A DNA stretch of 64,000 nt from Escherichia coli (lineage in GTDB: Bacteria > Pseudomonadota > Gammaproteobacteria > Enterobacterales > Enterobacteriaceae): the NCBI RefSeq assembly GCF_009931435.1, contig NZ_CP043414.1, one strand, 5' to 3'. Numbering within the stretch: position 1 is the stretch's first letter; each line of letters begins with the position of its first letter. Shown piece after piece: positions 52,601 through 55,600 of the stretch. Made by a program: the position numbers.

Positions 52601-55600
52601 AGAGCGCATCTGGCTTTGTACGTCTGCTTGATGCCGCAGGTCTGTCGATGGCACTGAACAAGTCGGTAGTAAATAACGATCCGCAAGGGTATCCGAACCG
52701 CGTTCGTCAGCAGCGCGCAACGGGCATTTGGGTCTATGAACGTTATCCTGCCGTAGATGGTGCGCTGCCGTACACCATCGATAGTAAGACAGGGGACGTT
52801 AAGTGGAAATATCAGGTAGAAAACAAACCTGATGACAAACCGAAGCTGGAAGTTGCCAGCTGGCTGGAAGATGTAGATGGCAAACAGGAAACGCGTTATG
52901 CCTTTATTGATGAGGCCGATCATAAAACAGAGGATTCTCTGAAGGCTGCGAAGGCAAAAATCTTTGAGAAGTTTCCTGGATTAAAGGAGTGTAAGGACCC
53001 AACTTACCACTACGAGGTCAACTGTCTGGAATATCGTCCTGGCACGGGGGTTCCGGTTACTGGTGGCATGTATGTTCCACAGTATACGCAACTAAGCCTT
53101 AACGCCGACACGGCAAAAGCGATGGTGCAGGCTGCGGATTTAGGCACCAACATTCAGCGTCTGTATCAGCATGAGCTCTACTTCCGGACCAATGGTCGCA
53201 AAGGTGAGCGTCTGAGCAGCGTCGATCTGGAACGTCTGTACCAGAACATGTCGGTCTGGCTGTGGAATAAAATTGAATATCGCTATGAAAACGACAAGGA
53301 TGACGAGCTGGGCTTTAAAACGTTCACCGAGTTCCTGAACTGCTACGCCAACGATGCCTATACTGGCGGCACGCAGTGTTCTGATGAGCTGAAAAAATCG
53401 CTGGTCGATAACAACATGATCTACGGCGAGAAGAGCGTTAATAAAGCGGGCATGATGAACCCGAGCTATCCACTCAACTATATGGAAAAACCGCTGACGC
53501 GCCTGATGCTGGGCCGTTCCTGGTGGGATCTGAACATTAAGGTTGATGTGGAGAAGTATCCGGGAGCGGTATCTGTAGGGGGAGAAGAGGTTACTGAAAC
53601 CATCAGCCTGTACTCGAATCCGACCAAATGGTTTGCAGGTAACATGCAGTCAACTGGCCTGTGGGCACCGGCTCAGAAAGAGGTCACCATTAAGTCCAAT
53701 GCGAACGTTCCTGTGACCGTCACCGTGGCGCTGGCTGACGACCTGACCGGACGTGAGAAGCATGAAGTTGCGCTGAACCGTCCGCCAAGAGTGACTAAAA
53801 CGTACTCTCTGGACGCTAGCGGTACGGTGAAGTTCAAGGTGCCTTACGGTGGCCTGATTTATATCAAGGGCAACAGCCCACAGAATGAGTCAGCCGAATT
53901 CACCTTTACTGGTGTGGTGAAAGCGCCGTTCTATAAAGATGGTGCATGGAAAAACGCTCTGAACTCCCCTGCGCCGTTGGGCGAGCTGGAGTCAGACGCT
54001 TTCGTCTACACCACGCCGAAGAAGAACCTTGAGGCCAGCAATTTCACTGGTGGCGTAGCAGAATTCGCTAAAGATCTGGATACCTTTGCCAGCTCGATGA
54101 ATGACTTCTACGGTCGTAATGATGAAGACGGTAAGCACCGGATGTTTACCTATAAAAACTTGACGGGCCACAAGCATCGTTTCACCAACGATGTGCAGAT
54201 CTCCATTGGTGACGCGCACTCTGGTTATCCGGTGATGAACAGCAGCTTCTCGCCGAACAGCACCACGCTGCCGACGACGCCGCTGAACGACTGGCTGATC
54301 TGGCATGAAGTAGGGCATAACGCCGCAGAAACGCCGCTGACTGTTCCAGGCGCGACCGAAGTGGCGAACAACGTGCTGGCGCTGTACATGCAGGATCGCT
54401 ATCTCGGCAAGATGAACCGTGTTGCTGACGATATTACCGTTGCGCCGGAATATCTGGAGGAGAGCAACGGTCAGGCATGGGCGCGCGGCGGTGCGGGTGA
54501 TCGTCTGCTGATGTACGCGCAGCTGAAGGAATGGGCTGAGAAAAACTTTGATATCACTAAGTGGTATCCAGAAGGTAACCTGCCTAAGTTCTACAGCGAT
54601 CGTGAAGGGATGAAGGGCTGGAACCTGTTCCAGTTGATGCATCGTAAAGCGCGCGGTGATGAGGTTGGCGACAAAACCTTTGGCGGCAAGAATTACTGTG
54701 CTGAATCCAACGGTAACGCAGCGGACACGCTGATGCTGTGTGCCTCCTGGGTCGCCCAGACGGATCTTTCCGCATTCTTTAAGAAATGGAATCCGGGCGC
54801 GAATGCTTACCAGCTGCCGGGGGCGAGCGAGATGAACTTCGAGGGCGGTGTGAGCCCGTCGGCTTACGAGACGCTCGCGGCGCTTGGTCTGCCGAAACCG
54901 CAGCAAGGGCCGGAAACCATTAATCAGGTTACCGAGCATAAGATGTCAGCCGAGTAAGCCCGTAGGCCGGATAAGGCGCTTGCGCCGCATCCGGCATGAA
55001 ATAAGGCGCACCGGGTCAACACATTTGCCCGATGCGCCAGCTTATCGGGCCTACAGACAGGGAAAGCCGTGATTATTTTCGCTGGCAGACACCCGTAGGC
55101 CGGATAAGGCGCTCGCGCCGCATCCGGCATGAAATAAGGCGCATTGGGTTAACACATTTGCCCGATGCGCAAGCTTATCGGGCCTGGAGGAAAGCCGTAT
55201 GGCATACACCTGCAGGCCCGCATCCGGCAAGTTACAACAAATAACCTTTAACCATGCTTTTTGATGTTTTTCAGCAATACCCTGCGGCGATGCCCATACT
55301 GGCAACCGTCGGAGGATTGATCATCGGCAGTTTTTTGAATGTGGTGATTTGGCGTTATCCCATCATGATTCGCCAACAAATGGCGGAGTTTCACGGTGAA
55401 ATGCCGAGTGCGCAGTCAAAAATAAGCCTGGCGCTGCCGCGTTCGCACTGTCCGCATTGTCAGCAGACCATCCGCGTTCGTGACAATATTCCGCTGCTCT
55501 CCTGGTTGATGCTCAAAGGGCGCTGCCGTGATTGTCAGGCGAAAATCAGCAAGCGTTATCCGCTGGTCGAGTTATTGACAGCACTCGCTTTTTTGCTGGC

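What the first reader, a model, noticed from the sequence alone, without database searches (positions are those of the whole stretch)
54958..55232. Tandemly duplicated BIME unit between sslE and pppA
An approximately 133-bp unit made of REP-like palindromes occurs twice in direct orientation with a few substitutions, followed by a third partial REP. Such arrays can act as mRNA stabilizers, partial terminators, or binding sites for IHF and gyrase, and could decouple sslE expression from the downstream gsp genes.
Basis: seen in the sequence. Interest (0 to 1): 0.25.

Follow-up and report, generated by a model that had tools for sequence, protein, structure and literature searches.

The report
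Copy-variable REP repeat array after sslE
The spacer between the mucinase gene sslE and its secretion-machinery genes holds two tandem copies of a 133-bp block of ordinary E. coli REP hairpin repeats; this is one rare allele of a repeat array that runs from one to five copies among strains, and it is a well-known kind of bacterial repeat.

Summary
Window 54959-55052 and 55092-55185 are 94-nt direct repeats, 95% identical and 133 bp apart. A deleted third REP follows at 55210-55229. The array fills the 296-bp spacer between the sslE stop (54955-54957) and the pppA start (55254).

Each unit has four parts: an inverted y-type REP, a 30-nt linker, a z1-like REP and a 40-nt linker. It is built like the canonical BIME-1 at 11611-11712 of this window, but it is tandemly repeated and has no IHF-type linker. 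That makes it an "atypical BIME".

In other genomes the same spacer is 129 to 733 bp long and carries 1, 2, 3 or 5 units. E. albertii has the K-12 form (one unit plus a full terminal REP), which is probably ancestral. The non-y part of the unit occurs only at this locus. The window's exact allele is in about 3 of 5,426 complete genomes. Two strains carry IS621 at the same CT of the z1-like REP.

Function was not tested. The most likely effect is an RNA hairpin barrier inside the sslE-gsp operon transcript; the first hairpin starts 8 nt after the sslE stop in most alleles. I found no terminator, promoter or IHF consensus. This is an ordinary, already known kind of element, of low interest.

The parts
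54955..54957 (+). sslE stop codon (TAA). The first REP stem begins 8 nt downstream, at 54966.
54959..55091 (+). Repeat unit 1 (133 bp)
54962..54996 (-). y-type REP no. 1, read GTAG-first on the + strand: GTAGGCCGGATAAGGCGCTTGCGCCGCATCCGGCA. The RNA hairpin has a predicted dG of -20.9 kcal/mol.
   Evidence: It has the same sequence class as the y REP of the canonical BIME-1 at 11678-11712.
54997..55026 (+). Head-to-head linker 'h' (30 nt). Its 3' part (GGCGCACCGGG) is complementary to the 5' arm of the next REP. The resulting alternative hairpin (-21.0 kcal/mol) is stronger than the REP's own hairpin.
55027..55054 (+). z1-like REP no. 1: GCCCGATGCGCCAGCTTATCGGGCCTAC. Compared with canonical z1 (GCCTGATGCGCTACGCTTATCAGGCCTAC at 11613-11641), a stem T-A pair is replaced by C-G.
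55055..55094 (+). Tail-to-tail linker 't' (40 nt). It occupies the position of the BIME-1 L linker but has no IHF consensus.
55092..55185 (+). Conserved part of repeat unit 2, 95% identical to 54959-55052. It contains y REP no. 2 (55095-55129), the h linker (55130-55159) and z1-like REP no. 2 (55160-55185). The CTAC tail of this z1-like REP is lost.
55186..55209 (+). Shortened t linker of unit 2. It carries deletions relative to unit 1 and to the last units of other alleles. REL606 has the same shortened form.
55210..55229 (-). Terminal y-type REP with an internal deletion of about 18 nt (CTGCAGGCC|CGCATCCGGCA). It is complete in K-12, E. albertii, XH990 and Z0117EC0005.
55254..56063 (+). pppA (prepilin peptidase), the first gene downstream of the array

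Best explanation
This is a locus-specific, copy-number-variable array of REP elements, an 'atypical BIME', in the transcribed spacer of the sslE-pppA-gsp (T2SS-beta) operon. What is shown: the unit is [inverted y REP, 30-nt linker, z1-like REP, 40-nt linker], closed by one more y REP. What is inferred: the ancestral state is probably one unit plus the terminal REP, as in K-12 and E. albertii. Lineages have expanded it to 2, 3 or 5 units and trimmed it by deletions between its own short direct repeats. The likely mechanisms are unequal recombination or replication slippage, possibly helped by the REP-associated transposase TnpA-REP. The window carries a rare two-unit allele whose last linker and terminal REP are partly deleted. 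How it most likely acts is inferred, not shown, and I give it about 45% probability. On the polycistronic mRNA the stable hairpins would act as a barrier to 3'-to-5' exonucleases and perhaps as a weak attenuator. The most relevant hairpin is the y-REP hairpin, retained in all 13 alleles inspected, which starts 8 nt after the sslE stop in most of them. The sslE (cargo) segment would then outlast or outnumber the downstream secretion-machinery message, as in the malE-malF REP paradigm. Copy number itself is probably close to neutral.
For: The repeat is real. REP identity was checked against the canonical BIME-1 and BIME-2 in the same window. Spacer lengths of 129, 139, 147, 155, 163, 197, 296, 326, 330, 459 and 733 bp decompose into whole units plus a terminal REP. 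TRF finds period 133 x 5.3 copies in Z0117EC0005. The differences 296-163=133 and 459-326=133, and the difference 296-197=99, fit loss of one unit and deletion between the 12-nt repeats that lie 100 nt apart. The non-y 95 nt of the unit is present in 1,568 of 5,426 genomes, with a median of 1 place and a maximum of 5. Every copy I inspected lies in the sslE-pppA spacer. 136 genomes carry the junction that defines a multi-unit array. The window-type allele is in about 3 genomes. E. albertii has the 197-bp K-12 form and Escherichia sp. E1V33 a 326-bp two-unit form. Units within a strain share strain-specific variants, as described for tandem BIMEs (PMC3333891). The RNA is strongly structured: -144.3 kcal/mol against -108.8 +/- 5.6 for shuffles, z = -6.4. 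The first y hairpin (about -21 kcal/mol) starts 8 nt after the stop in most of the 13 alleles inspected and 1 nt after it in the sslE-variant alleles. sslE is reported to be co-transcribed with the 13 downstream genes (PMC5012682). REP/BIME roles and strain-to-strain copy variation are established (PMC3333891).
Against: No expression data were available, so the RNA-barrier role rests only on position, predicted hairpins and analogy. The very variability (129-733 bp, with internal deletions of the z1-like REP in some lineages) argues that most of the array is under little constraint. There is no U-tract terminator. The mechanism of expansion (RecA, slippage or TnpA-REP) was not tested. The direction of change (expansion from one unit) rests on a single outgroup.
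Confidence: 0.85

Rival explanations
1. The array is purely selfish or neutral repeat DNA. It persists and changes copy number through its own recombinogenic repeats and has no measurable effect on expression of sslE or the gsp genes.
For: Length polymorphism is extreme and includes deletions that remove the z1-like REP entirely (129-, 139- and 147-bp alleles). IS621 insertions of about 1.28 kb are tolerated in the spacer in two strains. There is no promoter, terminator or IHF consensus.
Against: At least the stop-proximal y REP hairpin is kept in all 13 alleles inspected and in E. albertii. REP hairpins in transcribed spacers generally affect mRNA decay (reviewed in PMC3333891 and PMC12306157).
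Confidence: 0.3
2. The stop-proximal REP acts as a translational brake on sslE. The first hairpin begins 8 nt after the TAA, so a terminating ribosome would collide with it and stall, leading to mRNA cleavage or trans-translation and less SslE (mechanism of Liang, Rudd and Deutscher 2015). This does not exclude the main explanation.
For: The hairpin starts 8 nt after the stop in most alleles and 1 nt after it in the sslE-variant alleles, with dG of about -21 kcal/mol. [quoted passage not shown] 2015).
Against: This was not tested for sslE. SslE is an abundantly secreted protein, which sits uneasily with a built-in brake. The original paper could not be read here.
Confidence: 0.25
3. The array is a DNA-level protein-binding site (IHF, gyrase or HU) that acts as a topological or nucleoid-structuring element.
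For: REP/BIMEs are documented binding sites for IHF, DNA polymerase I and gyrase (PMC3333891, PMC1525189). The architecture z1-linker-y resembles BIME-1.
Against: There is no IHF consensus at up to 1 mismatch in the array, while the true BIME-1 in the window has one. The linker does not align with the L linker. To my knowledge, strong gyrase binding is a property of y/z2 BIME-2, and there is no z2 REP here.
Confidence: 0.1
4. The array encodes a REP-derived small RNA of the naRNA4 (REP325) type, or a small protein.
For: There are four sub-threshold Rfam hits to naRNA4, two per unit (one on each strand), best 38.3 bits at E = 3.7e-5. Four ORFs of 62-84 aa overlap the array.
Against: The hits are far below the family gathering score (59.5) and are explained by shared REP sequence. 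No sigma-70-like promoter is present. The ORFs have no Pfam match, are not annotated in RefSeq records and are broken by the indels between alleles.
Confidence: 0.03

Closest known systems
Atypical BIMEs of E. coli (Bachellier classification, as summarised by Ton-Hoang et al. 2012, PMC3333891)
   Same: REPs alternate in orientation. REP types and linkers are mixed. Copies are tandem and well conserved within a locus. Copy number differs between strains.
   Different: Both linkers are long (30 and 40 nt). Together with the z1-like REP they occur at this one locus only. The z1 REP is a variant with a C-G pair in place of T-A in the stem.
BIME-1 (RIP/RIB element), for example window 11611-11712
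   Same: It has a z1-class REP and a y REP placed tail-to-tail across a linker of about 36-40 nt. The REP parts align well.
   Different: BIME-1 is single-copy and has a conserved L linker with an IHF site. Here the module is tandemly repeated, the linker is unrelated and no IHF consensus is present.
BIME-2, for example the y/z2 pair at window 22611-22695
   Same: It is tandemly amplifiable, varies between strains and contains a y REP.
   Different: BIME-2 uses z2 REPs and short S linkers. There is no z2 REP here.
Intercistronic REPs of malE-malF and hisJ-hisQ (Newbury/Higgins paradigm; from my own knowledge, cited in PMC12306157)
   Same: REP hairpins lie between a highly expressed upstream gene and low-abundance membrane-machinery genes of one operon.
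   Different: The effect is shown experimentally for mal and his. Nothing has been measured for sslE-pppA.
Stop-codon-proximal REPs, e.g. nrdAB (Liang, Rudd and Deutscher 2015, via PMC12306157)
   Same: The REP hairpin begins within 15 nt of the upstream stop codon (8 nt here).
   Different: No evidence of ribosome stalling or tmRNA tagging exists for sslE.
naRNA4 / REP325 (Rfam RF02564)
   Same: Both share REP-derived sequence and hairpins.
   Different: The score of 38 bits is below the gathering score of 59.5, so this is not a member.

Membership tests
REP (palindromic unit), y type | A 30-40 nt imperfect palindrome with a stem mismatch and a conserved GTAG at its foot (PMC3333891) | tested here: met
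   54962-54996 and 55095-55129 read GTAG + GCCGGAT-AA-GGCG...CGCC-GC-ATCCGGC. They are near-identical to the y REP of the canonical BIME-1 at 11678-11712.
REP, z1 type | A short-loop REP matching GCCTGATGCGCTACGCTTATCAGGCCTAC (reference copy at window 11613-11641) | tested here: met
   55027-55054 (GCCCGATGCGCCAGCTTATCGGGCCTAC) aligns over its full length with 3 substitutions and a 1-nt deletion. Two of the substitutions form a compensatory T-A to C-G stem change. Copy 2 (55160-55185) has lost the CTAC tail.
BIME (generic) | REPs in alternating orientation separated by linkers | tested here: met
   The strand pattern of head and tail motifs is -,+,-,+,- across 54962-55229.
BIME-1 | Occurs as a single copy | tested here: not met
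   Two units here and up to 5.3 tandem copies in other strains.
BIME-1 | Conserved L linker, frequently carrying an IHF site | tested here: not met
   No WATCAANNNNTTR match at up to 1 mismatch in 54958-55253, whereas the window's true BIME-1 has one at 11653-11665. The linkers do not align.
BIME-2 | Composed of z2 and y REPs with a short S linker | tested here: not met
   The second REP is z1-like, not z2 (compare the z2 at 22611-22646). The linkers are 30 and 40 nt.
Atypical BIME | A chimeric combination of REP and linker types in multiple tandem copies, with copy number and linkers varying between strains (PMC3333891) | tested here: met
   The unit combines y with z1-like REPs and non-L linkers. 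There are 1-5 units among genomes, and linker variants are strain-specific.
Intrinsic (Rho-independent) terminator | A GC-rich hairpin followed by a U-tract | tested here: not met
   No terminator-like sites in 54600-55600 on either strand.
Stop-proximal translational-control REP (Liang et al. 2015) | The REP lies within 15 nt of the upstream stop codon | tested here: met
   The stem starts 8 nt after the TAA. The threshold is as summarised in PMC12306157.
Stop-proximal translational-control REP (Liang et al. 2015) | It causes ribosome stalling and reduced synthesis of the upstream protein | not testable with these tools
   This needs reporter, tmRNA-tagging or ribosome-profiling experiments.
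naRNA4 (Rfam RF02564) | The covariance-model score reaches the gathering threshold of 59.5 bits | tested here: not met
   The best score is 38.3 bits.
Gyrase-binding BIME | DNA gyrase binds and cleaves at the element | not testable with these tools
   No computational proxy is available.

The most novel reading that the evidence does not exclude
The number of 133-bp units (1 to 5) acts as a heritable, recombination-driven rheostat. By changing mRNA 3'-end protection or read-through, it would set the ratio of SslE cargo to T2SS-beta machinery (and of the sslE transcript to the rest of the operon). Lineages would then tune a colonisation factor through BIME copy number in the way a contingency locus works.
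Probability: 0.08. Interest if true: 0.45.

Novelty: already known. Interest (0 to 1): 0.12.

Why it matters
It matters little beyond annotation. REP/BIME arrays, their tandem amplification and their strain-to-strain copy variation are long described in E. coli. The locus sits between a vaccine-candidate mucinase gene (sslE) and the genes of the secretion system that exports it. If unit number affected the cargo:machinery ratio, it could explain some of the reported strain differences in SslE output. The spacer is also a natural, recurrent IS621 target and a hypervariable marker of 129-733 bp that could serve for strain typing.

Tried and rejected
1. Tandem Repeats Finder on the window found nothing at this site. 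The repeat finder and pairwise alignment did.
2. An Rfam scan gave only sub-threshold naRNA4 hits, explained by shared REP sequence.
3. Promoter and terminator scans found none.
4. An IHF consensus scan found none in the array.
5. ORFs overlapping the array have no Pfam hit, are unannotated and are not conserved across alleles, so I rejected them as genes.
6. The idea that the whole unit is a dispersed genome-wide family is rejected. The 95 non-y bases occur at a median of one place per genome, and all inspected copies lie in this spacer.
7. Two non-Escherichia hits of the 20-nt probe (a Roseburia and an Oscillospiraceae MAG) are chance matches inside unrelated coding sequence.
8. Literature: full texts of Yang et al. 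2007, Liang et al. 2015 and Liang and Deutscher 2016 are not held. Searches for yghJ/sslE together with REP found nothing specific to this spacer. No supplements are held for Ton-Hoang et al. 2012.

Full report
**Observation**

The repeat finder reports a two-copy direct repeat of 94 nt (54959-55052 and 55092-55185), 95% identical, with a start-to-start spacing of 133 bp. It also reports a 12-mer, CCGCATCCGGCA, at 54985, 55118 and 55218. A gapped alignment of the full 133-nt first unit against what follows gives 110 identities over 117 aligned columns. The differences are concentrated in the last ~39 nt, where the second copy carries deletions. Tandem Repeats Finder missed the array at this low copy number. 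The array fills the 296-bp spacer between the stop codon of a 1,526-codon ORF (TAA at 54955-54957) and the ATG at 55254. RefSeq annotates these genes as sslE and pppA in a 99.6%-identical record, and they are followed by gspS-beta, gspC and gspD. Two independent assemblies carry the same 296-bp allele, so it is not an artefact.

**Anatomy**

A motif scan for REP heads and tails shows alternating orientation across the array. The same 64-kb window holds a textbook BIME-1 at 11611-11712 and a y/z2 pair at 22611-22695. I used these as internal references. The BIME-1 consists of a z1 REP, a 36-nt linker with an IHF-like site, and an inverted y REP.

Each unit here has four parts:
- An inverted y REP at 54962-54996: GTAGGCCGGATAAGGCGCTTGCGCCGCATCCGGCA.
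- A 30-nt head-to-head linker at 54997-55026.
- A z1-like REP at 55027-55054: GCCCGATGCGCCAGCTTATCGGGCCTAC. It differs from canonical z1 by a compensatory T-A to C-G stem change, one further substitution and a 1-nt deletion.
- A 40-nt tail-to-tail linker at 55055-55094.

Read from the z1-like REP onward, the module z1'-linker-y has the architecture of BIME-1. The REP parts align well with the reference but the linkers do not. The IHF consensus WATCAANNNNTTR, allowing one mismatch, has no match in 54958-55253, although it does find the reference BIME-1 at 11653-11665. Unit 2 repeats this layout, but its z1-like REP has lost the CTAC tail. Its linker is shortened and the closing y REP (55210-55229) has lost about 18 internal bases.

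**Related sequences**

The spacer is hypervariable among complete E. coli genomes. The lengths I recovered, with their structure, are:

| Spacer length (bp) | Example | Structure |
|---|---|---|
| 129, 139, 147, 155 | LR-60, 98221, UTME-14, SJC33 | Internal or edge deletions |
| 163 | REL606 | One unit plus the deleted terminal REP |
| 197 | K-12 | One unit plus a complete terminal y REP |
| 296 | this window | Two units plus the deleted terminal REP |
| 326, 330 | Combat11I9, FDAARGOS_943 | Two units plus a complete y REP |
| 459 | XH990, SCU-316 | Three units plus a complete y REP |
| 733 | Z0117EC0005 | Five units plus a complete y REP |

- TRF scores the 733-bp form as period 133, 5.3 copies, 91% matches.
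- The arithmetic fits whole-unit changes: 296-163 = 133 and 459-326 = 133. The difference 296-197 = 99 matches a deletion between the 12-nt repeats that lie 100 nt apart.
- An alignment of 14 units shows that units within one strain share strain-specific variants. This matches the published description that tandem BIME copies at one locus are well conserved while copy number varies between strains (PMC3333891).
- The 95 nt of the unit outside the y REP occur in 1,568 of 5,426 genomes, with a median of one place and a maximum of five. Every copy I inspected lies in the sslE-pppA spacer. The unit is therefore a local amplification and not a dispersed family.
- 136 genomes (2.5%) hold the linker/y/linker junction that defines a multi-unit array. 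This count includes at least one false positive made of joined pieces.
- Five genomes pass the 80% coverage test for the window-type allele (two units plus deleted terminus). Three of them truly carry it, and one of those three also has an IS element in it.
- A scan of species-representative genomes found the array only in Escherichia. E. albertii has the 197-bp K-12 form and Escherichia sp. E1V33 a 326-bp two-unit form. Two other hits were chance matches in coding sequence.
- By parsimony, which is an inference, one unit plus a terminal y REP is ancestral. The longer and shorter alleles would then be derived by recombination among the array's own repeats.

**How it most likely works**

sslE is reported to be transcribed with the 13 downstream T2SS genes as one mRNA (PMC5012682, citing Yang et al. 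2007), so the array is transcribed.
- The + strand RNA of 54940-55260 is predicted to fold at -144.3 kcal/mol, against -108.8 +/- 5.6 for shuffles (z = -6.4).
- Predicted energies are -20.9 kcal/mol for the y hairpin and -13.5 for the z1-like hairpin. A competing hairpin between the h linker and the z1' 5' arm has about -21.
- In all 13 alleles inspected the y hairpin follows the sslE stop closely. Its stem starts 8 nt downstream in most alleles and 1 nt downstream in the alleles with the variant sslE 3' end.
- I found no U-tract terminator and no sigma-70-like promoter.

The best-supported mechanism, by position and by analogy with intercistronic REPs, is a 3'-to-5' exonuclease barrier, possibly with weak attenuation. 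This would favour the cargo gene over the machinery genes. I put it at about 45%. The stop-proximal position also meets the published criterion (fewer than 16 nt) for REPs that reduce translation of the upstream gene (PMC12306157, summarising Liang et al. 2015). I put that at about 25%, and it does not exclude the first mechanism. A purely neutral element is the main rival, at about 30%. Its support is the extent of length variation and the tolerance of IS621 insertions. DNA-level IHF binding is not supported by sequence. Gyrase and HU binding could not be tested.

**Comparison with what is known**

Using the definitions in PMC3333891:
- The element fails BIME-1 membership because it is not single-copy and has no L/IHF linker.
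- It fails BIME-2 membership because it has no z2 REP and no short S linker.
- It meets the definition of an atypical BIME: a chimeric combination, tandem copies and variation between strains.
- It is not naRNA4 (38.3 bits against a gathering score of 59.5).
- ORFs across the array have no Pfam match and are not conserved.

**Verdict**

The IHF and terminator suggestions are not supported by sequence. The regulatory suggestion is plausible but untested. The added findings are a copy-number series of 1 to 5 units, conservation in E. albertii, confinement to a single locus and repeated IS621 targeting. All of these are instances of behaviours already described for E. coli BIMEs. Novelty: already known kind. 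Interest: low.

Noticed in passing
L016 350-365 and 1636-1650 (E. coli RMDEC465); L023 about 2690-2700 and 3965-3975 (E. coli ij001): IS621 (IS110 family, about 1.28 kb) is inserted in the sslE-pppA array in two strains with different allele backgrounds. Both insertions are at the same site, the CT of the z1-like REP tail in unit 1 (GCTTATCGGGCCT|TGTATTATCC ... ACAGTATCT|ACAGA). This fits the reported REP-specific targeting of IS621 (PMC1525189).
   Followed up: yes
window 11611-11712: A canonical BIME-1: a z1 REP, a 36-nt linker with an IHF-like site (ATTCAATACCTTG on the - strand at 11653-11665) and an inverted y REP. I used it as an internal reference.
   Followed up: partly
window 22611-22695: A single y/z2 REP pair placed head-to-head across an 11-nt linker (BIME-2-like).
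   Followed up: no
window 55230-55256: pppA has no recognisable Shine-Dalgarno sequence upstream of its ATG (AGTTACAACAAATAACCTTTAACC-ATG). The sequence directly after the array is nearly identical in all alleles. This suggests weak or coupled translation initiation of the first machinery gene.
   Followed up: no
window 55003-55040 and 55136-55173: The 3' part of the h linker is the reverse complement of the 5' arm of the z1-like REP. The resulting hairpin (about -21 kcal/mol) is stronger than the REP's own hairpin (-13.5) and excludes it. In last-unit variants (CATCGGG) the stem is perfect. The linker looks like a remnant of an inverted z1-like REP half.
   Followed up: partly
L005 and L008 (E. 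coli SJC33 and 98221), sslE 3' ends: There are two families of sslE 3' end: ...AAGATGTCAGCCGAGTAA and ...ATTCGATGCCTGCTGAATAA. In the second family the left foot of the first REP, including GTAG, is missing, and the hairpin starts 1 nt after the stop.
   Followed up: no
rows H28-H40: About a third of complete E. coli genomes, including O157:H7 strains, matched the query only through generic REP sequence elsewhere (for example next to argE). They apparently lack the sslE-pppA junction.
   Followed up: no
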